Shown one piece after another: positions 1-12,945 of a stretch of DNA of 12,945 nt; the stretch's first letter is position 1; every line of letters starts with the position of its first letter. Source of the DNA: Candidatus Heimdallarchaeota archaeon B3_Heim (GTDB lineage: Archaea; Asgardarchaeota; Heimdallarchaeia; Hodarchaeales; Hodarchaeaceae). The notes under the pieces are model-generated. The model was not told where the DNA came from and made no database searches. It saw nothing but the letters and a program-made list of their open reading frames with translations. The stretch is taken from assembly GCA_003144275.1 (NCBI GenBank), contig NJBF01000067.1, positions 1 through 12,945 on the forward strand, given 5' to 3'. The translations under genes were made by a program, and so were the position numbers.

Positions 1-127
1 CCAGCGAGCTTCGCTCTACCTCGTCAAATATCAGGACACTCCCCTTATCATAATTACGATATACGTTAACTGCCGCTGTAGCTCCACTAGACGCGGGAGT
101 TACAAACTTGTCGTCAATCTGAGCTAA
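1..127. repeat. Terminal direct repeat, left copy (identical to 12819-12945); probable circular-contig/k-mer overlap
   Basis: Bases 1-127 (ccagcgagct...ctgagctaa) match 12819-12945 base for base by eye. 127 is a common maximum de Bruijn k-mer size. Confidence 0.95.
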
Positions 128-384
128 ATTGCCAAGTAAGATTGTGCGGCAGTTTTTCCCTCCTCGGCTAAGCATCCCTTTCATTTGTGCACGAGTCATA
201 TACTGAGCTTCGTCTATTATCAAAACGGCATCGTCGATAGAACGGCCTCGGAAATATGCCATTGAAGTGAACTCGATGTTCGCTCGCTCAATAATATGCT
301 CCACGGTAGCATGGATATTTGCATCATGATCATCATCGGTGTGCATTGAAATCAGCGCATCTGTAATACCTGCTAGTAAAGTCT
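1..384 (-). pseudogene. phoH: 5'-truncated PhoH-family ATPase fragment (continues across the terminal overlap to 12793)
   Basis: Minus-strand translation: LLAGITDALISMH...IEFTSMAYFRGRSIDDAVLIIDEAQYMTRAQMKGMLSRGGKNCRTILLGNLAQID...EVERSSL. This has the PhoH motifs RGRS, Walker B IIDEAQ, GNxxQID and RSxLA. An in-frame stop at 392-394 lies upstream, and no Walker A or N-terminal part is present. Confidence 0.85.
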
Positions 385-498
385 GGCCGATTCACACTTA
401 ACATAAGGAGTAAATCACTTTTAGCTCAAACCACCTCAAAAACCCTAACTAAAGTGCAATTATTAGGATGACATTTCAAAATTCAAATAAAAATATGG

Positions 499-526
499 TT
501 GAATTTACATTTATTCTATGTATTGT
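499..526 (+). promoter_or_regulatory. Candidate sigma70 promoter upstream of the small peptide ORF
   Basis: TTGAAT (499-504), 16-nt spacer, TATTGT (521-526). Pattern match only, in AT-rich DNA. Confidence 0.3.
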
Positions 527-619
527 AGTATAAGTTCAAGGATGAATTGTGTAGTGCCTTGAATAAGTTGCGTTAGGAATCGCTAACGTTTTCTCTAACT
601 TATTTTTGTGGAATCTATC

Positions 620-670
620 ATGAAAAATCGTAAAAAGAACGGCCAGTATACTGGTTCATTGCTTGGCTAA
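620..670 (+). CDS. Small 16-aa basic peptide MKNRKKNGQYTGSLLG; putative precursor/scaffold peptide of the cluster
   Basis: ATG 620 to TAA 670 with a weak SD (GGA at 610-612). Not in the ORF track. Lys/Arg-rich N-terminus, followed by a hairpin and then CgnB/E-like genes. Confidence 0.6.
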   Translation: MKNRKKNGQYTGSLLG

Positions 671-691
671 TTTCAGTTAGTTAGTACAAGC

Positions 692-726
692 TGAGGTCGG
701 CTTTGCCCGGCCTCAATTAGTTTTTT
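692..726 (+). terminator. GC-rich hairpin plus offset T-tract downstream of the small ORF (leaky terminator or mRNA-stabilising stem)
   Basis: TGAGGTCGG (692-700), loop CTTTGC, CCGGCCTCA (707-715): 9-bp stem with one G-U pair, then ATTAG and TTTTTT (721-726). Confidence 0.6.
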
Positions 727-828
727 AATTTTAGGTTGTTACATTGGTATGTAGTTGCAACAGTCTTAGCGTCTACACATCTTTGTACCATCTTAGATTT
801 TTTAGCCTCACAACAATAAAGGGATGTT

Positions 829-1917
829 ATGAAAACGATCATTGTTAACCCTGATGATATTGTTTCATTGGGAGACGATGGGGCAGAGGGTTTTTATTTA
901 GTAACCAACACTCCTTACTTAGAAAACTTTTCTCTAGGTGCGTCAAATAAGTATAAACACACTGAAATATTGTCTTGCGATGCTCAAGACAATTTCATCG
1001 AAAAAGTTCTTGGCAATATTCCAGAATCTAGCTGTGTATTAACCATAATGCCTGATTGCCTTGTAAAATCTGTTCCCTCAGAAGTACTAGGTAAGCGAAA
1101 ACTCCTAATTATGGCTTGCAGATCCGGTAAAACAGGGTTAGACGGAATCGAGCATTTTCTCAACTGCACCGCAAACTTCGATATAGATAGACAAATTGAG
1201 GCTGGCGAATCTTTTTTTGACAAAGGAGAGAAAAGTCAGTATCTCGAACTCGTAAATCATCGGCAAGGTGCAAGTTGTCGCTTTGAACATTTGAATGAAA
1301 TATATGAATGGCATGAGCAATATGGTCGTGTTGAGTGGAATGAACAGCAAGTCTTCCCATCAGGTGAGATTGCTTGCTTTTTAGTTCCTTTGTATATCGA
1401 AAAATTGTCTGAAAACACTAGGTTTGATTTGAATGGTGAAATCATTATGGAAGGTCCAGTCATTGTTCAATCTGGTCCACCATCTTTCCAACTAAAAGAC
1501 CAACTTAACATCCACGATGCACTGACAACTGAAGAAGGAAGTGGTGTAAAGCTCACAATCAAAAGTGGGGAAATTATAAAACATGAACCGGTCAATGAAT
1601 CAGGACAAAAAGCGGCAGATATGTTGTCAAGCTTGTTCGCTGTCGACTCACGCTTTCGGACGATATATGAAGTTGGATTTTCGCTCAATGAATCAATAAA
1701 ACTATGGCCGGGGAACACAGCGATGAATGAAATTTGGGGTGGTTCAGGTGGTCGGCTTCATCTAGGTCTAGGTATGCTTCCTCATACTCAATATCATATA
1801 GATGCCTTTTGCGCAAACACTCAAGTTAAAACAGATTCAGGTGAAGTCATATTTGGGCCTAGAGCTAAAAGCATGAATAGAAGGAAAAGCTCTCATTGTC
1901 CATGTGTAGAATTATAG
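829..1917 (+). CDS. M29/leucyl-aminopeptidase-fold metalloprotein, CgnB/CgnE-like, paralog 1 (362 aa)
   Basis: SD AAAGGGA upstream. Motifs WHEQ..PSGEI, YEVGFSLN, AMNE, LHLGLG and HID correspond to the Glu/Glu/Glu/His/His/Asp metal ligands of the M29 fold. Extra C-terminal tail MNRRKSSHCPCVEL. Confidence 0.75.
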   Translation: MKTIIVNPDDIVSLGDDGAEGFYLVTNTPYLENFSLGASNKYKHTEILSCDAQDNFIEKVLGNIPESSCVLTIMPDCLVKSVPSEVLGKRKLLIMACRSGKTGLDGIEHFLNCTANFDIDRQIEAGESFFDKGEKSQYLELVNHRQGASCRFEHLNEIYEWHEQYGRVEWNEQQVFPSGEIACFLVPLYIEKLSENTRFDLNGEIIMEGPVIVQSGPPSFQLKDQLNIHDALTTEEGSGVKLTIKSGEIIKHEPVNESGQKAADMLSSLFAVDSRFRTIYEVGFSLNESIKLWPGNTAMNEIWGGSGGRLHLGLGMLPHTQYHIDAFCANTQVKTDSGEVIFGPRAKSMNRRKSSHCPCVEL

Positions 1918-2961
1918 GTGCAAGGGATTATGACATTTCAATTAGACGTATCAAAATTAGATAATTTTGGAGAGATCTCGGGAGCAGATTTCATCTTGGT
2001 GACAACTGATGAACTCGCTAGCAAACTAGATTTAGTGGATACAAAAAAAGCTTACTCATCGCTTATTAAAGAATGTGTGACAAACTACAACCAATTTGAA
2101 GAAGCGCTTAGCTCCAAATTTCCAGAAAAAGCTCACATCTTGGTAGTTTTACCGTCAATATATGTAGCTTCCCCTCCCCCTGAAGTTTTAGGTAAGTACC
2201 GCAAACTTGCAACACTTGCGTGTTTTTCTACCCCCACTTCAATTGAGTCGATATTTCATTTTCTTGAGCAGGCAACACGCACAGATTCTGCCATGCAAGA
2301 AAAGATTGCAGATCGCTTTTTCGAAGTAGGTGAATCTGCGAAACACATCAAATTTGTAAACGAAGAATATGGAACTTCAGCAGTATTTAAACATTTAAGT
2401 GATGACCTTACATGGCATGAGCAAATTGGGAAGCTAGATTGGGGAGAGCAACAACTACTGCCTTCTGGAGAGGTAAGTACTCTTCCTGTATCTGTCTTCG
2501 GTGAAGATATAAAATCAAAATTGGACCTGAATGGTGAAATCCTATTGAAAGGGCAACCTGTTTTACATGCTGGCAACGTGTCCTTTTTGAGAAAAGATCA
2601 AGACCGAATTTTTAATGCTCTCAACTCAATAACTGAACATCCCCTAAAACTTGAAGTTAAACAAGGAGAGATCCAACACGTTACTGCAATCAGCTCAAAA
2701 GGAAAGGGTTCAGCTGATATGCTGAACGCATTATTCGATGTTGACTCTCGATTTAGGACTATCATCGAATTAGGCTTTGGAATAAATACAAATCTTGAAT
2801 TGTTTCCCGGAAATCAAGCAATGAACGAGGTGTACGGAGGAAAATCAGGGGTAATTCATTATGGAATAGGCCTTTTGCCCTTTACACAATACCACATTGA
2901 CTTTATTTGTCCTGATACCAGAGTTATGGATAACAATGGAATTCCTCTAGTGGGCGAATAA
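1918..2961 (+). CDS. M29/leucyl-aminopeptidase-fold metalloprotein, CgnB/CgnE-like, paralog 2 (likely true start ATG 1930)
   Basis: Same motif series: WHEQ..PSGEV, IELGFGIN, AMNE, IHYGIG, HID. Aligns block-wise with 829-1917 (DLNGEI, DMLxxLFxVDSRFRTI). SD AAGGGA precedes ATG 1930. Confidence 0.75.
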   Translation: MQGIMTFQLDVSKLDNFGEISGADFILVTTDELASKLDLVDTKKAYSSLIKECVTNYNQFEEALSSKFPEKAHILVVLPSIYVASPPPEVLGKYRKLATLACFSTPTSIESIFHFLEQATRTDSAMQEKIADRFFEVGESAKHIKFVNEEYGTSAVFKHLSDDLTWHEQIGKLDWGEQQLLPSGEVSTLPVSVFGEDIKSKLDLNGEILLKGQPVLHAGNVSFLRKDQDRIFNALNSITEHPLKLEVKQGEIQHVTAISSKGKGSADMLNALFDVDSRFRTIIELGFGINTNLELFPGNQAMNEVYGGKSGVIHYGIGLLPFTQYHIDFICPDTRVMDNNGIPLVGE

Positions 2962-2962
2962 A

Positions 2963-4135
2963 ATGGAATACGAATTAGAGCAAGAGATTAACAATTACAA
3001 ATCATACTTCGATTTAGATGGTTATCATTATCTAAACTGCGCATACATGGGCCCCTTGGCTACTTCGACCAAAAATGAAGGAATTGCCGCAATAGAAAGA
3101 AAAACTAACCCCAAATATGTAACGAAAGAACATTTTTTTTGCCATTCCACCGAAATTAGGCAACGTTTTTCTAAGCTTATTAACGAAGACGAGCCGAGTT
3201 CAATAGCAATAATCCCTTCCGTTTCCTACGGCATGTCGATAGTAGCTAATAATGTTGATATCCGGGAAGGTCAAAAAATCATTGTTGTCGCGGATGAGAT
3301 GCCTTCGAATTATTATATTTGGTATAGGTTAGCCAAAGAGAAACACGCAGAACTCGTTGTTATTGATAAACCATCCGATGCTAATGTTCGTTCAGATGAA
3401 TGGAATCAAACCATACTATCAACTATCTCCGATTCTACTGCGATTGTATCAATTCCAAATGTACATTGGTTAGATGGTTGCCTTTTTGATCTAGCTACTA
3501 TCAGCAAGAAGATACATGAACATGGAGGCCTGTTGATTGTCGACGGAACACAATCAATAGGAGCATATCCATTTGACAATAAGATAATCAGGGCCGATGC
3601 GGTTGTGTGTGCGGGATACAAATGGCTACTCGGTCCCTATGCTATTAGTATAGCTTACTTTTCTGAAAAGTTTTGGAAAGGCAAACCGCTTGAAGAAGGA
3701 TGGTTGAATAGAAAAAATAGCAACGATTTTGAATCTCTAACAAATTATCAGGATCAATATCGGGAGGGGGCGATCAGATTTGATATGGGTCAATCAAGTA
3801 ATTTTCTTAATGGTCCGATGTTAGCAGACTCTCTAAAAAATACTGAAATTTGGACCCCTTCAAAAGTGTCTGAACATTGTGCTTCGCTGAATAGCTTATT
3901 GGTGCAAGAATTATGTGATGTGCCGATTAAAGTATTAGCTGAAGATCAGAGAGGGCCTCATTATGTTGGTTTAGAAATAGACCCAATACTCTTGGAAAAA
4001 ATCGGACCTAAATTTTCAGACAACAACGTTTCTGCGTCAGTAAGAAACGGAAATATAAGAGTTACTCCGCACATATATAATGATATCGAGGATATCAAAG
4101 CTCTCGTTAAAGTTGTAAGAAGTTCTTTAAAATAG
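2963..4135 (+). CDS. Aminotransferase class-V fold PLP-dependent enzyme (lyase/epimerase-like; probably not a cysteine desulfurase)
   Basis: YLNCAYMGP, VDGTQSIG, PLP-lysine motif CAGYKWLLGP (K220, codon 3620-3622) and RVTPHIYN. No Cys in the segment before RVTPH. Starts 1 nt after the previous stop. Confidence 0.85.
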   Translation: MEYELEQEINNYKSYFDLDGYHYLNCAYMGPLATSTKNEGIAAIERKTNPKYVTKEHFFCHSTEIRQRFSKLINEDEPSSIAIIPSVSYGMSIVANNVDIREGQKIIVVADEMPSNYYIWYRLAKEKHAELVVIDKPSDANVRSDEWNQTILSTISDSTAIVSIPNVHWLDGCLFDLATISKKIHEHGGLLIVDGTQSIGAYPFDNKIIRADAVVCAGYKWLLGPYAISIAYFSEKFWKGKPLEEGWLNRKNSNDFESLTNYQDQYREGAIRFDMGQSSNFLNGPMLADSLKNTEIWTPSKVSEHCASLNSLLVQELCDVPIKVLAEDQRGPHYVGLEIDPILLEKIGPKFSDNNVSASVRNGNIRVTPHIYNDIEDIKALVKVVRSSLK

Positions 4136-4212
4136 GTTTGTTAAAATTTTAACCTAGAGGCTTCTGGAATCATTTTAGCACCAATTTTATAGGCAATTCT
4201 TAAAGTAAAACT

Positions 4213-6159
4213 TTGGACAATTTAATCGCGGCAAACATTATGGAAAAAAAAATCTTTGGCTCAGTTATTCCAGCGCCTAACCCAACCGGTGAATTGCATT
4301 TAGGGCACTTCCTCAACCTTTCGATTCAAGATCTTTTTTGTAGATGGCGGAGAACACAAGGTTGTGATATCAAATGGGCACTTGCATTAGATCATGGAGG
4401 TTCATCCACTGAATACGTTGCCACCAAGAACGATAAAAATTACATACAAAACTGCTCAGACAGAAAGTATATCTCAAATAAAATAACATCTTGGGTTGAC
4501 GGTATAACCCCAACAATACTCGAGCAGATAGATAAAATGAACTTGATCATTGATAGCGATGAGTTTAGATCTATGGCTGACAGTAAACGTGAGTATGAGT
4601 TTTTACAGTTCATTTCTCAAATGGCAAAAAGTGGAACAATATACAAAAGTGACCGTGTAATACCGTGGTGTACTGACAGACAATCTTTTGTAGATATTGC
4701 AGATATAGTGAAAAGTGAACATACAATTTACAAATATTCATTAATTTATAAAAGTGATGAAAACGAAAAGATAACTATAGATTCTGAAGACTTAAGTCTA
4801 TTGCTTAATGAAACAATAATTTTGATGTCAGAAGATTTTTATCAACGTTTACATGGTTCGCCTAAGTTTATTACAAACCCGCTCGGAGAAAATATAAAAA
4901 TAATTGTAAGTGATAAATTAATTTCCTTATTTTCTGGTAAAGAAATTGTAAGCATAACTCCGGGCCATTGTATTAATTCTTATTTCATATCTTTATATCT
5001 CAACGAAAAGATAAGTAGGGCTTTTAACGAAGGAGGCTATATTGAAAAAGAAGGTGAATACTTCAAAGTTCATAAGGAAGATGTAGAAAAAAGGCTATTA
5101 GAAGTTCTCCAATCTAGCAATCTTGTGAGTAAAATTCAGAAGTTAAATGTCATGGCAGATACATTTCGACTCAGTGGAAAGCGTGTCGAAAGTTTGCTTT
5201 CTAGGCAATGTTTCTTTGATGTCTCATCTCTAGCAAAAGATGCTTTAGAAAAAATAAGGAAAGGCACTGTCGATATAAAGCCTTCGCTATACAAACAAGC
5301 CTTAGAAAATTACTTAGAGGAACTTAACAAACCAGTCTTTCAATCTTTCAATGAGAGCGTATTTCTTAGAGATATTTGTATTTCTCAACAACTAGTATGT
5401 GGTACGGACTTTTCGTTAAAATCAGAAGAATTACGCTTCAAAGGAGACAAGTATCTTTTGGAAACCCAGATACCAAAAGAGGAAGTATACGTTGCAACAA
5501 TGAGGCTGTCTTGTGCTTTGTGGGCATTTTCGGCACAAATGGTATATGAAAAAGAACAAGCTAAATTAGAAAACTTAGGACAAAATAGTGTGTGTGTTAC
5601 AGGTATGGATCTGACAACGTTTTGGATTGCACCTATTTTGATGATGTCAGATGAAATTGGGTTCGCTCCATTTAAAACAGTTTACATACACCCTTTAATA
5701 ACCGATACAAAAGGTCGAAAAATGAGCAAGAGTTTTGGAAACACTGAAACTCCAGATACATTGATTGACAATTATGACGTTGATTCTGTAAGGCTATCAC
5801 TTTTCCTGTCCATAGATAACTCACTTCATAGGGTTATCGTAGACAAAAGTAAAATCGACTCAGTTCACCGCAACTTAAAAGATTTTAGAGAAAAGATTGT
5901 TTCTAAAACTACAGATAAGGAAAAATTCGAAATAGATTCATTAATAAATTCAAGTACAAAAGTAGTAAATGAATCTTTGCAAGTTAGCGATATACAAAGA
6001 GCTTCATCAGAAATAGAACAACTATTGAAAGCTGTAATAAGTAATCAAAACACCCTTTCAAAAAGACAAGTTTTTGATATTGCTAATGTGATAGAACCAT
6101 TTCTTCCTGAAACATCAGAATTTCTAAACCATAGCCTTGAATCTACATTAAAGGATTAG
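4213..6159 (+). CDS. Divergent, C-terminally shortened class Ia aminoacyl-tRNA synthetase paralog (ValRS-like); alternative start ATG 4240
   Basis: PNPTGELHLGH (HLGH 4297-4308) and GRKMSKSFGN (KMSKS 5719-5733). ValRS-like blocks LDHGG, ITPGH, ICISQQL, LSCALW, VTGMD..FW and PFKTVY. About 140 aa follow KMSKS. Confidence 0.85.
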   Translation: MDNLIAANIMEKKIFGSVIPAPNPTGELHLGHFLNLSIQDLFCRWRRTQGCDIKWALALDHGGSSTEYVATKNDKNYIQNCSDRKYISNKITSWVDGITPTILEQIDKMNLIIDSDEFRSMADSKREYEFLQFISQMAKSGTIYKSDRVIPWCTDRQSFVDIADIVKSEHTIYKYSLIYKSDENEKITIDSEDLSLLLNETIILMSEDFYQRLHGSPKFITNPLGENIKIIVSDKLISLFSGKEIVSITPGHCINSYFISLYLNEKISRAFNEGGYIEKEGEYFKVHKEDVEKRLLEVLQSSNLVSKIQKLNVMADTFRLSGKRVESLLSRQCFFDVSSLAKDALEKIRKGTVDIKPSLYKQALENYLEELNKPVFQSFNESVFLRDICISQQLVCGTDFSLKSEELRFKGDKYLLETQIPKEEVYVATMRLSCALWAFSAQMVYEKEQAKLENLGQNSVCVTGMDLTTFWIAPILMMSDEIGFAPFKTVYIHPLITDTKGRKMSKSFGNTETPDTLIDNYDVDSVRLSLFLSIDNSLHRVIVDKSKIDSVHRNLKDFREKIVSKTTDKEKFEIDSLINSSTKVVNESLQVSDIQRASSEIEQLLKAVISNQNTLSKRQVFDIANVIEPFLPETSEFLNHSLESTLKD

Positions 6160-6162
6160 TAC

Positions 6163-7083
6163 ATGAAATGTTTTATTTCGGGCTTAAAATATGAAATCGG
6201 CGATATTTTTGATATAGATGAGCTTTTAGTGAGTCCTGAAGTTACTGAATCAGATATCAAAAGGTTTAGAAACCTTGGGTTAAAAAATTATTCAAAATAT
6301 GAAGGATCTCTAGCAAGCCTATATGTGAAGTCTATTTCAAGTTCAATTGAATCTAGCGGTTTCATACCAGAGTCAATTGACGCGGTTATTCCTAGTGTAA
6401 TGACAGACTCTACGCCTGAAGATGATATGGAAATGTGGAAGGCTCTACATCAGTCAGGTCTAAACTCTCCGGCGGTTTTTGGGCTAGGCTGTCAAGAGTC
6501 AGCAACATTTGGAGGGGCAATTGATTTAGCAAAGAATCTTGTCAAGTCAGGTTCTTATAAAAGAGTACTAATATTAGTTGGTGCCATACGTAATAGCATA
6601 AAAGATAGAGTTACTCTTGGAGGTGAGACTATAGTAAGTGACGGAGCAGCGAGCTGCATTGTTTCGGATCATCCTGCTCAGTTCGAAATACTATCAACAA
6701 AAGTCATATCGAACCCCAAAAAAGCAGCTTCTTACAAGAGCGACCTTAGTCATGGTTTCATGATTGATGAATCTATAAGAATGATATCGGAAATCTCGAA
6801 ACTCCTTTTAGGCGAAGCAAATTTAAAATCATGTGCTATAGATAAACTTTTTTGTACAAACGCCAATGACCCCATATATACAATGTTCTCGCACTTTTCA
6901 AATATTGACGATCATAAAGTTATTAAAGAAGGGCTTAGAAAATACGGTCATGTAAATTTATGCGATAACGCTGTAGATATCTCATCTAAAATGCAATCAG
7001 GCGGCATTTCAATGGGAGAGAACTTAATGCTGCTTAATTGGGCAAGAAACCTTTTTTCAGGTGTTTGTCTGAGATACCTATGA
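6163..7083 (+). CDS. 3-oxoacyl-ACP synthase III (FabH/thiolase-fold)-like protein with a non-canonical active site; probable carrier-protein-dependent acyltransferase
   Basis: FabH-like blocks IDAVI, FGLGCQESATFGGAIDLAKNLV, RVLILVG, SDGAASCIVS, LFCTNAN and YGHVNLCD. Ser113 sits at the usual Cys position, with TNAN for HQAN and GH for GN. Confidence 0.8.
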   Translation: MKCFISGLKYEIGDIFDIDELLVSPEVTESDIKRFRNLGLKNYSKYEGSLASLYVKSISSSIESSGFIPESIDAVIPSVMTDSTPEDDMEMWKALHQSGLNSPAVFGLGCQESATFGGAIDLAKNLVKSGSYKRVLILVGAIRNSIKDRVTLGGETIVSDGAASCIVSDHPAQFEILSTKVISNPKKAASYKSDLSHGFMIDESIRMISEISKLLLGEANLKSCAIDKLFCTNANDPIYTMFSHFSNIDDHKVIKEGLRKYGHVNLCDNAVDISSKMQSGGISMGENLMLLNWARNLFSGVCLRYL

Positions 7084-7086
7084 CTA

Positions 7087-7332
7087 TTGATAGGCTATGG
7101 AATTGATATGAAAAACGTGCTTAGAAATATTTTTAAAGAACATTTGAGTCAAAATAACATTAATGATACTTCGAATTTTTTTGACCTTGGGGGAGATTCA
7201 CTCTCAGCAGTCTTATTATTAATAAAAGTAGAAAAAGAAACTGGCATTAAAATACAAAATGAGCAGTTTTACGCAGAACCTACGATAAACGGCCTTACAG
7301 AAATATGTGAAAAAAAGAACGAAAATAAATAA
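7087..7332 (+). CDS. Stand-alone phosphopantetheine carrier protein (PCP/ACP); likely start ATG 7108
   Basis: NFFDLGGDSL (Ser codon 7198-7200) and FYAEPTINGL match the NRPS T-domain pattern FFxLGGxSL...FxxPTIxxL. Confidence 0.9.
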   Translation: MIGYGIDMKNVLRNIFKEHLSQNNINDTSNFFDLGGDSLSAVLLLIKVEKETGIKIQNEQFYAEPTINGLTEICEKKNENK

Positions 7333-7374
7333 AAATCCCCTAGGAATAATTACAAATGAATATATCAAACCTTT

Positions 7375-7398
7375 ATAGATTACGTAGCTATAATCTAT
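7375..7398. promoter_or_regulatory. Dyad ATAGATTA-N8-TAATCTAT, candidate operator upstream of the efflux genes
   Basis: Perfect 8-bp inverted repeat (7375-7382 and 7391-7398) in the 176-bp intergenic gap. Confidence 0.3.
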
Positions 7399-7508
7399 TA
7401 TGCCCACTTATATATACTTACATGGACAGTTCTTATGAAAGTAATTTTTTTAGAACAAATTTTTTACATCATTACGAAAACGCTGTTTCCTACTGGTAAT
7501 TTCTAAAA

Positions 7509-8534
7509 ATGAAATTTACTGCTACCAGAGTTTTTACTATATCTTCGATTCTTATAGCGGCTTTGGTATTTTTTTTGGCAGAACTTCCCAAAGAGCTTGA
7601 TTTATTTGAAAGGGTTGGGACTGATAATGCTTATGTCCATGGTCATCTCTTTCACATTGGCAGCCCAATTTCAGGAATTGTCGAAAAAGTATACGTTAGT
7701 GAATTTGATTCTATCAAAGAAGGTCAGTTACTAGTAAAACTATCTGATAAGGAGCTGATAGCTAGTTTGGAAAGAACAGTTTTGGAACTAGATGTGAATA
7801 ATCAAGCAATAATTTCTTTAGATTCTGATGAAGCTCTTCAAAAGAAGATACTTGAGCAAGCTCAATCAAACCTTAAAGGTCTAAAAGAGCTGTCCGAGAT
7901 AGTAAACAGGGAAAGAAGAAGGTCAGAAGAGTTATTTAAAAGTAACGCACTTGGACAGTCGGACTTTGATGCTGCCACATTTAGAGCCAAAGAGTTGGAA
8001 AATGAGATAAAAGATGTTAGCGCACAGATTGATATAGAGTCAGCAAAGCTACAGGTTATTTATAGCAGAAAAGCCATGTTAGTCGCAGAGGGGGAAGTTC
8101 TCAGGAAAAATATTGAAGTAAAAAAGTACAACATCAATAAACTTAACATAGTAGCACCATATGAAGGAACCATTGGTAGATTACATGTTCATAGTGGTTC
8201 TTGGGTTTCAGAGGGTGACAATGTTCTATCAATTGCTGACAGTTCTGCACTTTGGGTTGAAGCTAACTTTAAAGAGTCTCAATTATTAGAAATTTCAATT
8301 GGAGACGAAGTATACATTTATGTTGACGCTATCCCTGATAGGAAGCTCTTTGGTTCAGTAAAACAAATTTCTCCAGCAACAGCTTCAGAATTTAGTTTCC
8401 TGCCCTTGAGAAAAAACTCTGGGACTTTTACCAAAACTATACAGAGAGTGCCTGTCAAAATCTCAATTGATGAAGATAACTGGAAATCAAGACTTAGAAT
8501 AGGCATGTCAGTAGAAGTGGAACTTAACAGGTGA
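7509..8534 (+). CDS. HlyD/EmrA-family membrane fusion (periplasmic adaptor) protein
   Basis: N-terminal membrane anchor, TDNAYV, lipoyl-like motif ISGIVEKVYV...GQLLVKL, coiled coil, IVAPYEG, LWVEANFKESQL and FTKTIQRVPVKI. Confidence 0.92.
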   Translation: MKFTATRVFTISSILIAALVFFLAELPKELDLFERVGTDNAYVHGHLFHIGSPISGIVEKVYVSEFDSIKEGQLLVKLSDKELIASLERTVLELDVNNQAIISLDSDEALQKKILEQAQSNLKGLKELSEIVNRERRRSEELFKSNALGQSDFDAATFRAKELENEIKDVSAQIDIESAKLQVIYSRKAMLVAEGEVLRKNIEVKKYNINKLNIVAPYEGTIGRLHVHSGSWVSEGDNVLSIADSSALWVEANFKESQLLEISIGDEVYIYVDAIPDRKLFGSVKQISPATASEFSFLPLRKNSGTFTKTIQRVPVKISIDEDNWKSRLRIGMSVEVELNR

Positions 8535-10111
8535 CTTCGCATAATTCGAGTGACAATGAACCAATCATTACTTCGCTCAGACGTACGATTGGTTTTTTTT
8601 TCATCTTGTTAGGGATGTTTGCTGCATTTTTTGATACTTATGTTACTCTCTCCATCTTCCCTCAAATTAGCGCTTCTCTTGGGGCATCTATCGAAGAAGG
8701 AAGTCGAGTCCAGTCATCATACTTGATTGCTGAAGTACTAATGATTGGACTGAGCGGCTATCTGGTTAAAAGAATGTCTCTAGCTTTCGTATTCTCCGTA
8801 TCATCGATTTTATTTTCTGTAACAAGCTATTTATGCGCTCTAGCAACCAGCATTGATCAACTAACCGTGTGTAGGTTTATACAAGGCCTCGCGGGCGGCG
8901 CTATGATCCCAACAGCATTTTCTGCAATTTATATTCTTTACAACGCAGACAAACATGCATTAGTTGGTGCGATTGCTGGCGCAATAGGAACACTAGCCCC
9001 TACACTCGCTCCTTCATTCGGTGCATATGCCGCAGAAGTATATGACTGGCGAATCATCTTCTATATAAATATATTCCCTTTGATAATAGGTGGTTTCGTT
9101 GTCTATTTAGCTTTCAAATCCGAAACCAATAAGAATCGTCCAAAATCAGAGGAAACGTTCGACTACCAAAGTTTCTTGTTTCTAATAGCGTTTGTTTTTT
9201 TAATACACTATGTCATCGATAATGGGTTGGAAAAGGGTTGGCTCGAATCTCGGGGAATATTTATATCGATAATTTTTCTATTTTTCTTATGTGTTTCCTA
9301 CCTTAATTTTTTCAGCAGAATAAATAACCCTTTAATTGAATGGCGTGTTTTTAAGAGTCAATACTTCATGTTCGGTACGGTTGTGATTTTCTTTTTCAAC
9401 TTAATTCACATAACAACATCTTTTGTGATATCAAGCTATTTTGCTGATATTGCGGGTATGGGGTCGGAATATATTGGCAAAGTTTTGCTTATTGTAGGCG
9501 TGTTTCAAATTCTATGTTCACCGATAGCTCCCTATCTTGCAAGCAAGATAGGCTATGAGACAACGTTAATAACAGGTTTAGTAGTACTTTTTCTATCTAT
9601 TGCTATTGATATAAATATTACTGACGAGTGGACGATCAACGATTTTTTCTTTTCGCAAGCCCTTAGGGGCTGTGTTTTTATGATTATTGCAGTTTCAGCC
9701 CAAAATCTTGCTATGAGTATGCTTCCACGCGATTTGATTAGCGACGGGAGTACAGTAATGAATATGTTTAGGGCTTTAAGCGCAGGCATCGGCATCGCTG
9801 CTATTACTTCTTCGTTGTTGTATTGGAAAGATAAATATTATTCGGATACTACTATTTTCTTAGATTCTCAAAAAACAAATAACGCTTATCAATTCATCAA
9901 CAATTCTATAATTCGCTCCGAAAATCATATAACACCCATCGAAATAGAAAGATATATAGCATATCGGGTAGAAATAGATTCGTCAGTTTTGGCATATTCA
10001 AATACATTTTTTGGTTTAGCAGCCCTAACATTTTTATTATGCCTTTTTTCTGCGCTTTTCTTGATTTTCGTTAAAACGAAAAGTTTAAAGTCTGGCAAGG
10101 TACTTATCTAA
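8531..10111 (+). CDS. EmrB/QacA-subfamily (DHA2) MFS efflux transporter
   Basis: 526-aa polytopic hydrophobic protein with SYLIAEV, CRFIQGLAGGAMIP, PTLAPSFG and WRIIFYINI. GTG start overlaps the HlyD stop (GTGA). Confidence 0.92.
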   Translation: MTSHNSSDNEPIITSLRRTIGFFFILLGMFAAFFDTYVTLSIFPQISASLGASIEEGSRVQSSYLIAEVLMIGLSGYLVKRMSLAFVFSVSSILFSVTSYLCALATSIDQLTVCRFIQGLAGGAMIPTAFSAIYILYNADKHALVGAIAGAIGTLAPTLAPSFGAYAAEVYDWRIIFYINIFPLIIGGFVVYLAFKSETNKNRPKSEETFDYQSFLFLIAFVFLIHYVIDNGLEKGWLESRGIFISIIFLFFLCVSYLNFFSRINNPLIEWRVFKSQYFMFGTVVIFFFNLIHITTSFVISSYFADIAGMGSEYIGKVLLIVGVFQILCSPIAPYLASKIGYETTLITGLVVLFLSIAIDINITDEWTINDFFFSQALRGCVFMIIAVSAQNLAMSMLPRDLISDGSTVMNMFRALSAGIGIAAITSSLLYWKDKYYSDTTIFLDSQKTNNAYQFINNSIIRSENHITPIEIERYIAYRVEIDSSVLAYSNTFFGLAALTFLLCLFSALFLIFVKTKSLKSGKVLI

Positions 10112-10157
10112 CGTCTAAATTTACAGGTTTTATTTAGGGCTTTGAAGGATCAATAAA

Positions 10158-10583
10158 TTGAAATATTCTTCCAATTGTTCATGTGTCTGTGTGAAATTAG
10201 AACTCCAATTACCTCAAGTAATTGCATCTTACAACCCACGAGAGTGCGATTGTAGTTTTTGTAAGAAACGTAGTTTAAGATATCTTTCAGACAAATCAGG
10301 AAAGCTTGTCATTAGGACTGGCTTACAACTCTGTCAATCCAAGCAAGGATCCAAGCAGGCAAATTTTATCAGTTGTTCAAATTGTGGTGATGTGGTTGCT
10401 GTTACTTTCTCCTCACTTGAAGGATTGAAAGGGGCGGTCGTAGCAAATTTATTTGAAGAAAAATTCAAAATAGGTAAACCTATAAGTGTTTCACCTAAAC
10501 TGTTGACTCCAGAAGAAAAACGCATAAGGTGGACGTCGCTATGGCTAACAGTTGATATCCATGAGGATCAAGTTTTTGTTTGA
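10158..10583 (+). CDS. GFA/CENP-V (Mss4-like, aldehyde-activating) Zn-binding protein
   Basis: Cys pattern CSC...CDCSFC...CSNCG in 141 aa. TTG start 46 bp after the MFS stop. Confidence 0.8.
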   Translation: MKYSSNCSCVCVKLELQLPQVIASYNPRECDCSFCKKRSLRYLSDKSGKLVIRTGLQLCQSKQGSKQANFISCSNCGDVVAVTFSSLEGLKGAVVANLFEEKFKIGKPISVSPKLLTPEEKRIRWTSLWLTVDIHEDQVFV

Positions 10584-10621
10584 TGATACTAAGCCTACAA
10601 AAAGTGTTCTGCGCAACTAAA

Positions 10622-11455
10622 TCAGGACACTTTTCTTAAGGAACTTTGTTCATACTCTACTGGCGACAGATCACCATTAGCTGTATAAAGTCGTTCTAAG
10701 TTGTAATAGCGCATATACACTGTTACATCGTTTCTCATATGCTCACGAGTTGGCTGTGGCACTTTCAGCAACCAATCATGTTTTAAACTGCCGAAGAATC
10801 TTTCAACAACAGCGTTATCCCAACAGGATCCAACATCGCCCATGCTAGCTCTCATACCATAGTTAGCTAACAGTTTACGATAATGTTTGCTGGTATATTG
10901 TGACTCTCTGTCAGAGTGAAACACTAAGCCTTTTGGAGGCTGACGTAAGTTATAAGCTTTAATCATTGCCTTGCTAACCAAATCAGTCGTCATCCGCTTA
11001 TCAATATGCCAGCCGACGATACGGCGAGAGTATAAGTCCATCACAATGGCTAGATACATCCAGCCTTCGCCAGTTCTCAAGTACGTCACATCACCAGCCC
11101 ACACCTGATTGGGCGTAACAGGGTTAAAGTTCTGATTCAGCAGATTATCTGCAACAGCATCATTGTGTTTACGTTTGGTTGTCACCTTGTAAGCCACTCG
11201 TTGAGTCACTTCTAGACCAAGTATTGCCATTAATTTCTGAACGCCATAATCACTGACGCTAAAGCCCTCACTGAGTAACTTCTTTCTAAGCTCACGATAA
11301 CCTAAGCTATTTCGGCTTCTCTTAAATATAGCCTTGGCTCTTCGATACAAATTAAGCTGCTCAGCGGTGATGATTTTAGCTGGCCGTTTAAGCCAAGCGT
11401 AATAAGCACTGCGACTTACGTTCATAATTTTGCAGAGCTTAACTACGGGAAACAC
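10622..11455 (-). CDS. IS3-family transposase OrfB (DDE domain)
   Basis: PNQVWAGDVTY, YLAIVMDLYSRRIVGW, FHSDRESQY and WDNAVVERFFGSLK; all three D-D-E residues are present. Confidence 0.93.
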   Translation of the reverse strand: MFPVVKLCKIMNVSRSAYYAWLKRPAKIITAEQLNLYRRAKAIFKRSRNSLGYRELRKKLLSEGFSVSDYGVQKLMAILGLEVTQRVAYKVTTKRKHNDAVADNLLNQNFNPVTPNQVWAGDVTYLRTGEGWMYLAIVMDLYSRRIVGWHIDKRMTTDLVSKAMIKAYNLRQPPKGLVFHSDRESQYTSKHYRKLLANYGMRASMGDVGSCWDNAVVERFFGSLKHDWLLKVPQPTREHMRNDVTVYMRYYNLERLYTANGDLSPVEYEQSSLRKVS

Positions 11456-11484
11456 CGAAGATAACTGCTTAATCGTTTTAAACG

Positions 11485-11784
11485 TTACTTGGTTTCCTTT
11501 AGCAGGAGGGCGCTGGCCTTTTTTAAGACTTCTTTTTCCATCCTTAGCTCTTTATTTTCCTTGCGTAGCCTTAACAGCTCAGCTCGCTCATCTGAATTTG
11601 AACTGGCACCAGATTGCTCTGCTTCAACTTTAGCTTTCCAGTTATAAAGTAATTTATCTGTGATACCTAAAGACGCTGCTGCCTTTGGTACGCTATAGCC
11701 TTGCTCTGTTACTAATGCCACAGCTTCTTGTTTAAATTCTGCTGTGTAACTTCTGTTTGTTCGTTTTGTCATTTCACACCTCAA
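11485..11784 (-). CDS. IS3-family transposase OrfA (HTH)
   Basis: RSYTAEFKQEAVALV...AAASLGITDKLLYNW...ELLRLRKENKELRMEKEVLKKAS. The ATG of MTKR (11770-11772) may be the real start. Confidence 0.92.
   Translation of the reverse strand: MRCEMTKRTNRSYTAEFKQEAVALVTEQGYSVPKAAASLGITDKLLYNWKAKVEAEQSGASSNSDERAELLRLRKENKELRMEKEVLKKASALLLKETK
11518..11524 (-). promoter_or_regulatory. A AAA AAG programmed -1 ribosomal frameshift site of the IS3 element
   Basis: The minus strand reads TTA AAA AAG GCC in the orfA frame. The -1 frame (KKGQRPPAKGNQVTFKTIKQLSSVFP) is open into orfB. Confidence 0.8.
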
Positions 11785-12095
11785 TAATTGGATTATATTC
11801 CATTATTAAAGTGTCCTATTTAATTAAAGCAATTCAAAATACGCTTAAAAGATAACCGTCAATTTCCCTTGGTAATTAAGGACTACGACAAAATCGCGTG
11901 GTGTTAACAGCGGAAAAGAATTTAACTCAAATCTAATTTGTCGCTGAGACCGAAAAACTGGGTAACTGTCAGATCAAGTATGAGCTAATACATCTTAGGT
12001 TTTGGCATTAGCATTTTAGTGCTTATTTCCGCGATATTTACTTCTTTCGTTGATGATAATTTCATTTCCGAGGGCTTTAGGCTTGGCGATAGGCT

Positions 12096-12573
12096 TTGGA
12101 GAGACAACATGAGGCTAAGAAGTGTAAGATGCCGGACATAACAGTTACTTATTTAGAGCTGGGGCTGGAACAAAAGTGGAGTCCAGAACAAATAGCTGGC
12201 GTGGGTAAAATCGTCGGTCAGTTGGTAAGCCATGATTGGATTTATTGCTATTTACAACGCGATAAACTAACAGGTGGCAGACTTTATAAAAGGTTGCGTC
12301 ACGGTCGGCGTTAATACAGTAAAAGCAGTCGCGGGAAGCGTGTGATTAGTTCAAATCGCGTTGGCGAAGCGTGTCGCCCCGCTATCGTGAACAAGAAGAA
12401 ACGGTTCAGCAATTAGTAAGCCGATACAGTTTTAGGTAAGCAAGGAACATGCGCGATTGTCAGCCTTGTCGAGGGAAAAAGTAAACTATATCTGGTAAGG
12501 AAAAGTGTCAGCGAAAAGCGCGGCTGATGCCGCCAAGGCTATGGTTAGTATGCTGTGGAAATACCGGAGCCAC
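12096..12573 (+). pseudogene. Decayed, truncated IS30-family transposase fragment
   Basis: KWSPEQIAG...VSHDWIY...LYKRLRH, then stop 12312-12314, NRVG..RPAIVNKKKRF, SN**ADTVLGKQG (stops at 12414-12419 where GDWExDT is expected), a frameshift near 12500, and SAAD.AKAMVSMLWKY. Homology ends before the DNG motif. Confidence 0.85.
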
Positions 12574-12737
12574 TCTTCCACCTTTCTCGCTTGACGGCCT
12601 CGATTTAGATTTTGTGAGATGCTTCTATTTGTTGATGTATTGATAATGCCTCTGCTAAATCTAAGGCCGAGTTCTTTTTTGTTTAATTGATTACTTTTTT
12701 GATTGAACAGAGATTTAGTTGTCTGGCAAATAAATAA

Positions 12738-12780
12738 TATGGGTACTCAACGCTCAATGACAATACCTTAAGTACCCATA
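12738..12780 (-). terminator. Inverted repeat just downstream of the phoH stop; possible terminator
   Basis: TATGGGTACTCAA (12738-12750) pairs with TTAAGTACCCATA (12768-12780) at 12 of 13 positions, with a 17-nt loop, 12 bp after the phoH stop. Confidence 0.4.
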
Positions 12781-12792
12781 CCTAATCCTTGT

Positions 12793-12945
12793 TTACAAAT
12801 TTTGCTCTGTAAACTGAGCCAGCGAGCTTCGCTCTACCTCGTCAAATATCAGGACACTCCCCTTATCATAATTACGATATACGTTAACTGCCGCTGTAGC
12901 TCCACTAGACGCGGGAGTTACAAACTTGTCGTCAATCTGAGCTAA
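12793..12945 (-). pseudogene. phoH: 3' end of the PhoH-like fragment
   Basis: Reads ...DKGSVLIFDEVERSSLAQFTEQNL* with TAA at 12793-12795, in frame with 128-391 when the ends are joined through the 127-bp overlap. Confidence 0.85.
12819..12945. repeat. Terminal direct repeat, right copy (identical to 1-127)
   Basis: Exact match to bases 1-127. Confidence 0.95.

What the first reader, a model, noticed from the sequence alone, without database searches (positions are those of the whole stretch)
4213..6159. ValRS paralog that looks repurposed: adenylation motifs kept; editing site, substrate pocket and tRNA-binding C-terminus eroded
Seen: HLGH and KMSKS are intact. The editing-domain motif TTRPET is replaced by DSEDLS, and ITPAHDxND by ITPGHCINS. 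WCISRQLWWG becomes ICISQQLVCG, DTWFSS becomes TMRLSC, and only about 140 aa follow KMSKS, versus several hundred (anticodon-binding bundle plus coiled coil) in housekeeping ValRS. Known: described amino acid:carrier-protein ligases derive from class II SerRS. Inference: this is a class I-derived adenylating enzyme with a new substrate and a non-tRNA acceptor, most plausibly the PCP encoded two genes downstream. That would be an unusual replacement for an A domain.
Basis: partly seen in the sequence, partly recalled or inferred. Interest (0 to 1): 0.87.

Follow-up and report, generated by a model that had tools for sequence, protein, structure and literature searches.

The report
ValRS-derived carrier-protein loading enzyme
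This gene is a cut-down, rewired copy of valyl-tRNA synthetase that most likely loads an amino acid onto a small carrier protein instead of onto tRNA, so a translation enzyme appears to have been recruited as the "adenylation domain" of a peptide natural-product pathway.

Summary
ORF 4213-6159 encodes a 648-aa (or 639-aa) ValRS-fold protein. It keeps HLGH, KMSKS, the alpha-amino-binding Asp and the GxD Asp. It has lost every ValRS editing residue, changes the valine pocket (Pro42->Ala, Trp456->Arg) and keeps only 141 aa after KMSKS.

It belongs to a rare, monophyletic, ValRS-derived family (about 15 clusters among 1.8 billion representatives). Eleven of 16 family loci have a carrier protein or domain within two genes, including two Dlt-like ValRS-like/PCP/MBOAT trios. 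In a Cylindrospermum plasmid the domain is circularly permuted and fused in frame between a condensation and a thiolation domain. In sister clusters an ordinary A-T didomain takes the slot of ValRS-like + PCP.

No biochemistry exists, and no paper in the searched library describes it.

Two things are new relative to the finding. The operon is headed by a conserved 16-20-aa precursor peptide (...KNGQYTGSLLG) and two CgnB/CgnE-like genes, so it looks like a ribosomal-peptide/NRPS-like hybrid. The 12.8-kb contig assembles as a circle, carries bacterial IS elements and was binned with an apparently Heimdallarchaeota MAG, so the host is uncertain.

The parts
4213..6159 (+). ValRS-like protein (648 aa from the TTG start; 639 aa from the ATG at 4240). 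It has a class Ia Rossmann catalytic core, a retained CP1 fold and a short helical stub.
   Evidence: valS models score far below their cut-offs. The fold matches ValRS 1gax.
4297..4308 (+). HIGH motif (H29-L-G-H32), inside the family-specific PAPNPTGxLHxGH box
   Evidence: Invariant in the family.
4705..5262 (+). CP1 ('editing') domain remnant, about residues 165-350. The fold is predicted with high confidence. The editing residues are replaced: T-rich box -> DSEDLS; K270/D276/D279 -> S247/C253/S256. The family motif is TPGHCxxS(F/Y).
5497..5514 (+). The former DTWFSS pocket motif, now T429-M-R-L-S-C434. Trp456 of the Tth ValRS valine pocket becomes Arg431.
5719..5733 (+). KMSKS motif (K503-S507)
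5734..6156 (+). C-terminal stub of 141 aa: a reduced helical bundle. There is no Pfam Anticodon_1 hit and no ValRS C-terminal coiled coil.
7087..7332 (+). Stand-alone carrier protein (81 aa, PP-binding) with the GGDSL phosphopantetheine serine (Ser38). It is the proposed acceptor.
6163..7083 (+). KAS III-like protein (306 aa). The FabH Cys-His-Asn positions are Ser113, Thr232 and His263, with invariant Asp268. It is probably an acyl/aminoacyl transferase rather than a condensing enzyme.
2963..4135 (+). Class V PLP enzyme (390 aa). The PLP lysine is present. The loop that carries the catalytic Cys in SufS-type desulfurases appears to be missing.
829..1917 (+). CgnB/CgnE/NicX-fold protein, copy 1 (362 aa), with a conserved C-terminal ...S-x-C-P-C tail
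1918..2961 (+). CgnB/CgnE/NicX-fold protein, copy 2 (347 aa)
608..670 (+). Candidate precursor peptide (20 aa; core MKNRKKNGQYTGSLLG). It is conserved upstream of the CgnB/E-like pair in 13 other loci.
7509..10111 (+). EmrA-like adaptor (7509-8534) and EmrB/DHA2 MFS pump (8531-10111). Probable exporter.
10158..10583 (+). Cys-rich 141-aa protein of the GFA/CENP-V family. A homolog follows the ValRS-like gene in L015.
10600..11840 (-). IS3-family element, 80-81% nucleotide identity to IS3 copies on Moellerella, Providencia and Pseudoalteromonas plasmids
12819..12945 (.). 127-nt terminal repeat, identical to bases 1-127. The contig closes into a 12,818-bp circle.

Best explanation
The gene encodes a ValRS-derived amino acid:carrier-protein ligase.

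Shown from sequence:
- A class Ia synthetase catalytic core with intact ATP motifs (HIGH, KMSKS).
- The Asp that holds the substrate's alpha-amino group (D60).
- The GxD Asp (D466 = Tth ValRS D490), which a published review names as the thiol-binding-site residue of ValRS.
- All post-transfer editing residues, most of the anticodon-binding bundle and the tRNA-binding coiled coil are gone.

Inferred mechanism:
1. The enzyme makes an aminoacyl-adenylate from a free alpha-amino acid. The acid is probably not valine, because the pocket changes Pro42->Ala and Trp456->Arg.
2. It passes the aminoacyl group to the phosphopantetheine thiol of the 81-aa PCP at 7087-7332. This specialises the weak CoA/pantetheine aminoacylation that ordinary ValRS already shows.
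3. The KAS III-like protein between them (Ser/His/Asp in place of Cys/His/Asn) then probably moves the aminoacyl group from the PCP to an acceptor.
4. The likely pathway acceptor is the product derived from the ribosomal peptide MKNRKKNGQYTGSLLG. That peptide is handled by the two CgnB/E-like proteins and the class V PLP enzyme, and the product is exported by EmrAB.

In relatives the transfer step is taken by condensation domains or an MBOAT.
For: (1) Catalytic motifs are kept and tRNA/editing determinants are lost across the whole family. The fold is ValRS.

(2) The family is one clade on a long stem, beside bacterial-type ValRS (SH-aLRT 100). It is rare: four representatives score above 790 bits and about ten more truncated forms score 400-560 bits among 1.84 billion representatives.

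(3) A carrier protein or domain lies within two genes in 11 of 16 loci:
- the window
- L010 and L013, each ValRS-like-KAS III-like-PCP
- L012, PCP + HpaB
- L014 and L017, ValRS-like + PCP + MBOAT. This mirrors DltA/DltC/DltB, which is established knowledge of the dlt system.
- P0086 and P0090
- L026, where the next gene is C-A-T
- L032
- L018

(4) Rosetta-stone fusion. Cylindrospermum sp. NIES-4074 plasmid3 has one 1300-aa ORF with Condensation(23-456) - ValRS-like - PP-binding(1184-1246). The ValRS-like domain is circularly permuted: query residues 387-548 match 488-658 and query residues 1-378 match 771-1153.

(5) Non-orthologous replacement. In clusters headed by the same precursor peptide and CgnB/E pair, the slot holds either ValRS-like + PCP followed by PhyH (L032) or TE + (C)-A-T followed by PhyH (L036, L029).

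(6) Chemical precedent. Canonical ValRS aminoacylates CoA-SH to Val-S-CoA, and Asp490 is listed as its thiol-site residue (PMC5370406). Class II SerRS homologs are proven aa:CP ligases (cited).

(7) There is no tRNA gene in the contig.
Against: - No biochemical data exist for any family member.
- Five of 16 loci show no carrier protein in the DNA available (L009, L011, P0009, L015/L016, L024). Several of these contigs are short or cut.
- In one locus (L011) the neighbours include a LanB-like protein and a PheRS B3_4 domain, which could point to aminoacyl-tRNA use.
- The CP1 domain is conserved with a new motif (TPGHCxxS) whose role the model does not explain.
- The condensation domain fused to the Cylindrospermum homolog has HE in place of the catalytic HH, so that module is itself unusual.
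Confidence: 0.7

Rival explanations
1. Direct ligase without a carrier. The enzyme adenylates an amino acid and transfers it straight onto a hydroxyl, amine or thiol of the ribosomal peptide, or onto a small molecule, as MshC does for cysteine. The PCP would serve another step.
For: The cassette of precursor + CgnB/E pair + PLP enzyme + ValRS-like + GFA-like occurs without a visible PCP in L015/L016. The precursor peptide offers Tyr, Thr, Ser and Lys nucleophiles. Class I paralogs acting as direct ligases are known or predicted: MshC and MetRS paralogs (PMC2922099).
Against: The in-frame fusion to a thiolation domain, the Dlt-like trios and the A-T replacement all point to a thioester carrier. 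The L015/L016 contigs end about 0.5 kb after the cassette.
Confidence: 0.12
2. It is still a tRNA synthetase of relaxed or new specificity. It would feed an aminoacyl-tRNA-dependent tailoring enzyme (PEARL/LanB-, Fem- or CDPS-type).
For: HIGH, KMSKS and the whole catalytic core are intact. One relative sits about 7 kb from a LanB-like gene and next to a B3_4 domain protein. Dedicated aaRS paralogs that feed biosynthesis are known (PMC2922099).
Against: The following are lost: the ValRS coiled-coil arm, most of the anticodon bundle, the Arg of the ISRQ box in most members, and all editing residues. Scores are far below the valS cut-offs. There is no tRNA gene. No aminoacyl-tRNA-using enzyme family was detected in the window. 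The domain is fused between C and T domains in Cylindrospermum.
Confidence: 0.08
3. Self-resistance or spare housekeeping ValRS copy for a ValRS-targeting product.
For: It lies in a biosynthetic-looking operon with an efflux pump. Resistant aaRS copies in clusters are a known theme (MupA/MupB models appear).
Against: A resistance copy must still be a complete ValRS. This protein scores 254.6 bits against a cut-off of 704 and lacks the editing, anticodon and coiled-coil determinants. The same family appears in unrelated cluster types (Dlt-like and NRPS-fused).
Confidence: 0.02
4. It makes an amino thioacid or another activated species, by attack of sulfide or persulfide on the adenylate, in a sulfur-transfer pathway with the class V PLP enzyme and the GFA-like protein.
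For: The gene is adjacent to a SufS/CsdA-like PLP enzyme in at least 6 loci, and a GFA-family (C-S chemistry) protein follows it in two loci. The first CgnB/E-like copy ends in a conserved CPC tail.
Against: The PLP enzyme appears to lack the loop that carries the persulfide-forming cysteine in SufS. This is my reading against the SufS motif recalled from memory. The PLP enzyme also occurs with the precursor and CgnB/E pair where no ValRS-like gene is present (L027/L035). The idea does not explain the PCP links.
Confidence: 0.05

Closest known systems
Amino acid:[carrier-protein] ligases derived from class II atypical SerRS (Mocibob et al. 2010, 2013; cited in PMC2922099, PMC9437257 and PMC5370406)
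   Same: A translation synthetase that has lost its tRNA-binding parts. Its gene sits next to a small carrier protein. The proposed chemistry is aminoacyl-AMP followed by transfer to the phosphopantetheine thiol.
   Different: A different enzyme class and fold: class I Rossmann ValRS lineage rather than class II. A CP1 insertion domain is retained. Members are also found fused inside an NRPS module and in Dlt-like trios. No activity has been demonstrated.
Housekeeping valine-tRNA ligase (TIGR00422 / PRK05729; structure 1gax)
   Same: Nearest relative by sequence, tree and fold. HIGH, KMSKS, Asp81 and Asp490 equivalents are kept.
   Different: Scores about one third of the family cut-off. The editing residues, Trp456 of the valine pocket, most of the anticodon bundle and the C-terminal coiled coil are missing.
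NRPS adenylation (ANL, PF00501) domains and DltA
   Same: It occupies the same genomic and architectural positions: before a PCP, between C and T domains, or with a PCP and an MBOAT. It is replaced by an A-T didomain in sister clusters.
   Different: An unrelated fold and unrelated ATP-binding motifs. No A-sub-domain that could alternate between two conformations.
MshC, GluQRS, CDPSs and the MetRS paralogs predicted by Aravind et al. 2010 (PMC2922099)
   Same: Class I synthetase catalytic domains recruited to non-translational ligation or secondary metabolism.
   Different: They derive from CysRS, GluRS, TyrRS/TrpRS or MetRS. Their acceptors are an amino sugar, a tRNA base, aminoacyl-tRNA or an unknown amine. 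None is linked to carrier proteins in this way.
Crocagin system (CgnA precursor, CgnB/CgnE binding proteins; PMC10070186)
   Same: Tandem CgnB/CgnE-fold genes directly after a short, lysine/arginine-rich precursor whose conserved part is C-terminal.
   Different: The core ends ...QYTGSLLG rather than Tyr-Trp. No CgnC-type dioxygenase is present in the window. Both copies keep the conserved His/Glu/Asp columns. The system is coupled to a carrier-protein loading module.

Membership tests
Valine-tRNA ligase (ValRS) | Score above the curated cut-off of the valS equivalog models | tested here: not met
   PRK05729 scores 254.6 bits against 704. TIGR00422 scores 229.8 against 612.1.
Valine-tRNA ligase (ValRS) | Class I signature motifs HIGH and KMSKS | tested here: met
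   HLGH at 29-32 and KMSKS at 503-507
Valine-tRNA ligase (ValRS) | CP1 post-transfer editing site (T-rich box, Lys270, Asp276, Asp279 in Tth numbering) | tested here: not met
   The T-rich box is DSEDLS. The three residues are Ser247, Cys253 and Ser256.
Valine-tRNA ligase (ValRS) | Anticodon-binding domain (PF08264) and C-terminal tRNA-binding coiled coil (PF10458) | tested here: not met
   No Pfam hit to either. 141 aa follow KMSKS, against 332-389.
Valine-tRNA ligase (ValRS) | Charges tRNA(Val) | not testable with these tools
   Needs an aminoacylation assay or valS complementation.
aaRS-like amino acid:carrier-protein ligase (functional class) | Synthetase catalytic core with the tRNA-binding module lost | tested here: met
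aaRS-like amino acid:carrier-protein ligase (functional class) | Carrier protein encoded beside the ligase | tested here: met
   PCP at 7087-7332. 11 of 16 family loci, and one in-frame fusion.
aaRS-like amino acid:carrier-protein ligase (functional class) | Homology to class II atypical SerRS (the described family) | tested here: not met
   Class I ValRS fold and sequence. It can only be an analog, not a member, of the described family.
aaRS-like amino acid:carrier-protein ligase (functional class) | Aminoacylates the phosphopantetheine thiol and not tRNA | not testable with these tools
   Needs MS of holo-PCP loading. The complex prediction gave no verdict.
NRPS adenylation domain (ANL superfamily) | AMP-binding fold (PF00501/PF13193) | tested here: not met
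   No such hit; the hit is tRNA-synt_1.
NRPS adenylation domain (ANL superfamily) | Position between C and T domains of a module | tested here: met
   Met for the Cylindrospermum homolog only. In the window the parts are separate genes.
Crocagin-like RiPP cluster | Two tandem CgnB/CgnE homologs with a short precursor gene within 1.5 kb | tested here: met
   Fold hits to 6zsv and 6zsu. Pfam CgnE_B on the L015 orthologs. Precursor at 608-670.
Crocagin-like RiPP cluster | C-terminal core with conserved Tyr-Trp, and a CgnC-type dioxygenase | tested here: not met
   The core ends QYTGSLLG. No dioxygenase family among the window ORFs.

The most novel reading that the evidence does not exclude
A ValRS-derived domain is a genuine second kind of NRPS 'adenylation domain'. 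It works both as a stand-alone loader for free PCPs and, after circular permutation, in line as C-[ValRS-like]-T. It serves a previously undescribed ribosomal-peptide/NRPS hybrid pathway that decorates the conserved peptide MKNRKKNGQYTGSLLG.
Probability: 0.45. Interest if true: 0.9.

Novelty: new variant of a known kind. Interest (0 to 1): 0.8.

Why it matters
aaRS-derived carrier-protein ligases are known only from class II (SerRS-like) enzymes. A 2022 review table of aaRS paralogs lists no repurposed ValRS.

A class I enzyme doing this job, including a version fused inside an NRPS module, would matter for four reasons:
- It would be a second, independent bridge between ribosomal and non-ribosomal peptide chemistry.
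- It would turn the long-noted weak thiol-aminoacylation activity of ValRS into a physiological function.
- It would reveal an adenylating unit that genome-mining tools keyed on ANL domains may miss.
- It would offer a new, compact, engineerable loading module.

The linked precursor peptide family also defines an uncharacterised natural-product class. One member lies in a named cyanobacterial strain, Cylindrospermum sp. NIES-4074.

Tried and rejected
- Complex prediction of ValRS-like with the PCP: no verdict, score 0.11. It is not used as evidence either way.
- Word-indexed search for longer (fused) relatives: only ordinary long ValRS/IleRS were found. The long proteins among the top 150 representatives were also ordinary ValRSs with extra domains. 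The Cylindrospermum fusion is therefore the only fused form found.
- PLSDB searches: the protein query hit only ordinary valS genes, and the DNA query hit only the IS3 element.
- The Cylindrospermum record is not in the annotated collections, so its deposited annotation could not be read.
- PDB sequence searches with the CgnB/E-like proteins found nothing. Only the fold search linked them to CgnB/CgnE/NicX/M29.
- Promoter and terminator scan: no more sites than in shuffles.
- No tRNA gene in the window.
- The last protein search (EmrB) gave only relatives of 32% identity or less, one of them named Gammaproteobacteria, so it did not settle the host.
- Literature searches for a class I or ValRS-derived carrier-protein ligase, for a permuted aaRS in NRPS, and for the peptide motif found nothing relevant.
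- Rejected readings: pseudogene or decaying copy, because family-wide invariant motifs are shared by sequences only 26-51% identical and the model is confident; and self-resistance ValRS, because it fails the ValRS membership tests.
Full report
**1. What is at 4213-6159**

The ORF translates without stops to 648 aa. The database representative starts at the ATG at 4240 and is 639 aa.

- Pfam finds only the class I synthetase catalytic domain, tRNA-synt_1, at E 3.9e-49. It finds neither Anticodon_1 nor the ValRS C-terminal arm.
- NCBIfam ranks valS models first but far under their cut-offs: 254.6 bits against 704, and 229.8 against 612.1.
- The best solved relative is T. thermophilus ValRS 1gax, with query residues 14-531 aligned to residues 35-556.
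- An AlphaFold model built on the nine family sequences has mean pLDDT 85.2. It superposes best on 1gax (TMq 0.78), then on IleRSs.

**2.

Residues kept (Tth ValRS numbering -> this protein):
- HIGH: H29-L-G-H32.
- KMSKS: 503-507.
- Asp81 -> D60. From my knowledge of the 1gax structure, this Asp binds the alpha-amino group.
- Asp490 -> D466.
- Trp495 -> W471.

Residues changed:
- Pro42 -> A21.
- Trp456 -> R431.
- Ile491 -> L467.
- Arg of the ISRQ box -> Gln.
- Editing residues T214/R216/T219 -> S/D/S.
- Lys270 -> S247, Asp276 -> C253, Asp279 -> S256.

Only 141 residues follow KMSKS, against 332-389 in full-length ValRSs. What remains aligns with parts of the anticodon bundle and ends in its PFxP motif. 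That P41, P42, W456, I491 and W495 line the valine pocket, and that D279 anchors the editing substrate, rests on my knowledge of the ValRS structures. The numbering was re-derived from the alignment.

**3. It is a family, not a one-off**

A search of 5.8 billion proteins found eight relatives of 608-667 aa at 26-51% identity, all from metagenomes. After these come full-length ValRSs at 27% identity or less.

A profile search of 1.84 billion representatives shows the same gap. Four family representatives score above 790 bits. About ten truncated forms score 400-560 bits, of which five look family-like by Pfam score. Ordinary ValRSs follow at 400 bits or less.

A scan of one genome per species added a Stellaceae MAG and Cylindrospermum sp. 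NIES-4074 plasmid3.

In a maximum-likelihood tree rooted on IleRS, the eleven family rows form one clade (SH-aLRT 100). These rows include the de-permuted Cylindrospermum domain, whose two segments I re-ordered inside the script for alignment only. The clade sits on a long stem beside bacterial-type ValRS.

Family-wide conserved boxes:
- PAPNPTGxLHxGH
- (A/V)(L/V)DHGG
- TPGHCxxS(F/Y)
- xM(R/K)LSCALW
- VTGxDLxxFW
- KMSKS

Conservation of new motifs at 26-51% identity argues against decay.

**4. Gene neighbourhoods point to a carrier protein**

| Locus | Arrangement |
|---|---|
| Window | ValRS-like, KAS III-like, PCP |
| L013, L010 | the same three genes |
| L012 | PCP + HpaB-type monooxygenase, divergent |
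| L014, L017 | ValRS-like + PCP + MBOAT |
| P0086 | ValRS-like + PP-binding protein |
| P0090 | PP-binding (faint hit) + PhyH + ValRS-like |
| L026 | ValRS-like followed by a C-A-T NRPS |
| L032 | ValRS-like + PCP + PhyH + radical SAM |

The ValRS-like + PCP + MBOAT layout is that of DltA/DltC/DltB, from established knowledge of the dlt system.

Together with the fusion described in section 5, that is 11 of 16 loci. The five without a carrier are L009, L011, P0009, L015/L016 and L024, and several of these are short or cut contigs.

**5. Fusion and replacement**

On Cylindrospermum plasmid3 a single 1300-aa ORF reads Condensation (23-456), ValRS-like, PP-binding (1184-1246, GGHSL).

BLASTP shows that the ValRS-like part is circularly permuted. 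The second half (ISRQ box, pocket motif, GxD, KMSKS and helical stub; query 387-548) comes first, at 488-658. The first half (HIGH and CP1; query 1-378) follows at 771-1153. The new termini, where the C and T domains are attached, fall in the loop just before the ISRQ box. In the model of the window protein this loop is the low-confidence stretch at about 373-412. I infer, but did not measure, that this places the T domain near the acceptor-end entrance of the active site. The fused C domain has HE instead of the catalytic HH.

A degenerate DNA pattern for the precursor peptide (section 6) pulled ten more loci. In L032 the CgnB/E pair is followed by ValRS-like + PCP + PhyH. In L036 and L029 it is followed by a thioesterase, a (C)-A-T NRPS, PhyH and the PLP enzyme. 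An ordinary A-T didomain and ValRS-like + PCP therefore fill the same slot.

**6. The operon around it**

- Bases 608-670 encode a 20-aa peptide ending ...MKNRKKNGQYTGSLLG.
  - The same C-terminus is encoded just upstream of a pair of CgnB/E-like genes in L015/L016 (two copies), Cylindrospermum, and ten metagenome loci. L036 has up to six tandem copies.
  - In the one locus that is cut short (L028) no downstream DNA is available to check.
- The two genes at 829-2961 are 37% identical to each other and 46-52% identical to L015 genes that carry Pfam CgnE_B.
  - A model of the first (pLDDT 77) matches NicX dioxygenase, CgnB (6zsv, TMt 0.66-0.67), CgnE and M29 aminopeptidases.
  - CgnB and CgnE are the peptide-binding proteins of the crocagin RiPP pathway (PMC10070186).
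- The class V PLP enzyme keeps the PLP lysine. It appears to lack the segment that carries the catalytic cysteine in SufS (the SufS motif is from memory).
- The KAS III-like protein has an invariant Ser at the FabH Cys position, Thr at the His position, and His at the Asn position with an invariant Asp five residues on. From memory this resembles the Ser-His-Asp acyltransferase DpsC, which is a lead and not a test.
- EmrA/EmrB-type genes follow, then a Cys-rich GFA-family protein.

**7. Mechanism proposed**

Shown:
- an intact adenylate-forming core with an alpha-amino anchor;
- loss of the tRNA and editing determinants;
- physical and genomic coupling to carrier proteins.

Inferred:
1. Amino acid + ATP give aminoacyl-AMP.
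2. The Ppant thiol of the PCP attacks the adenylate. This is the reaction that canonical ValRS performs weakly on CoA-SH, with Asp490 (here D466) listed as the thiol-site residue (PMC5370406).
3. The KAS III-like transferase, or C domains or an MBOAT in relatives, passes the aminoacyl group on.

The substrate is unknown. Arg in place of Trp456 suggests a polar or acidic side chain, but this is speculation.

A speculative whole-pathway sketch is that the CgnB/E-like pair and the PLP enzyme modify the ribosomal peptide and the carrier-bound amino acid is then attached to it.

**8. Rivals**

The rivals considered are a direct ligase without a carrier, a dedicated tRNA charger, self-resistance, and thioacid formation. 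They are set out with their evidence in the Rival explanations section. The fusion to a T domain and the A-T replacement are the main arguments against all of them.

**9. Provenance caveat**

- The window is the whole contig C73. Its first and last 127 nt are identical, so it closes into a 12,818-bp circle.
- No replication gene was seen. The remaining DNA holds a truncated PhoH-like gene, an IS30 fragment and an IS3 element that is 80-81% identical to copies in Morganellaceae and 73-75% identical to Pseudoalteromonas copies. It may be a small plasmid, or a composite transposon that the assembler closed.
- The MAG's own ValRS is of the archaeal type and shares a 90% cluster with a 'Candidatus Heimdallarchaeota' protein.
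- No other contig of the MAG encodes homologs of the pump, IS, KAS III-like, PCP or GFA-like genes.
- No relative genome matches the contig, and 21 same-genus genomes lack the family.
- Tetranucleotide distance is at the 94th percentile, which is atypical but not extreme.
- The identical ValRS-like protein's cluster also holds a fragment from an Ectocarpus assembly.

The host is therefore most likely a bacterium and the binning is doubtful. This does not affect the functional argument, but 'paralog of the host's valS' cannot be assessed.

**10. Novelty**

Searches of the paper library found class II SerRS-derived aa:CP ligases, MshC, GluQRS, CDPSs, predicted MetRS-paralog ligases and tRNA-dependent enzymes. 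They found no class I or ValRS-derived carrier-protein ligase, no aaRS domain inside an NRPS module, and no mention of the peptide motif. The library is incomplete, so prior description elsewhere cannot be excluded.

I rate this a new variant of a known kind: the known reaction type, reached from a different synthetase class and with new architectures.

Noticed in passing
window 608-670 (+); also L015 1328-1390 and about 1428-1490, L018 13413-13532, L027-L036: A conserved short ORF ends ...(K/R)(K/N)KNG(Q/E)YTGSLLG and lies directly upstream of a tandem pair of CgnB/CgnE-like genes. It is present in up to six tandem copies (L036). It looks like the precursor of an undescribed RiPP-like family. 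No paper in the library holds the motif.
   Followed up: partly
window 1-127 and 12819-12945: The contig ends are identical over 127 nt, so the contig assembles as a 12,818-bp circle with no recognisable replication gene. It may be a small plasmid or an IS-bounded unit closed by the assembler.
   Followed up: partly
whole contig C73 versus the rest of G000: The MAG appears to be Heimdallarchaeota-like: its ValRS clusters at 90% with a protein of that name. The contig, however, carries bacterial-type EmrAB genes, an IS3 close to gammaproteobacterial copies, and genes with no homologs elsewhere in the MAG. Mis-binning or a foreign mobile element is likely.
   Followed up: partly
L018 8540-12442 (Cylindrospermum sp. 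NIES-4074 plasmid3): A 1300-aa NRPS-like ORF in which the ValRS-like domain is circularly permuted between a condensation domain and a T domain. The condensation domain's HHxxxDG motif reads HExxxDD.
   Followed up: partly
window 829-1917 C-terminus; L015 1559-2647; L018 13994-15106: The first copy of each CgnB/E-like pair ends in a conserved basic stretch followed by S-x-C-P-C. The second copy lacks this tail. Both copies keep the same conserved His/Glu/Asp columns, whereas the crocagin paper reports that the second copy of a duplicated pair has lost the metal site.
   Followed up: no
window 6163-7083: The KAS III-like protein has Ser/Thr/His at the FabH Cys/His/Asn positions and an invariant Asp five residues after the His. 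This suggests a Ser-His-Asp acyltransferase rather than a condensing enzyme.
   Followed up: partly
window 10158-10583: A Cys-rich 141-aa protein has no Pfam hit, but the ESM Atlas places it in the GFA/CENP-V family (feature score 0.96, structure TM 0.93). A 27%-identical homolog follows the ValRS-like gene in L015.
   Followed up: partly
window 12096-12314 (+) and 12793..346 (-, across the junction): Two gene remnants: the N-terminal part of what looks like an IS30-type transposase (by eye), and a 123-aa C-terminal fragment of a PhoH-like ATPase.
   Followed up: no
G000 C88:112536-115115 (L001 1462-4041) and relatives G001, G015, G021: The MAG's own ValRS (859 aa) reads HLGF at the HIGH position. 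Several same-genus genomes carry both an approximately 860-875-aa ValRS and an approximately 930-950-aa bacterial-type ValRS. Only the shorter type was found in G000.
   Followed up: no
L011 2662-3883 and 9113-11614: One family member (P0007) sits near a methyltransferase, a PheRS B3_4-domain protein and an 833-aa LanB-like protein. This is the only context that hints at aminoacyl-tRNA chemistry.
   Followed up: no
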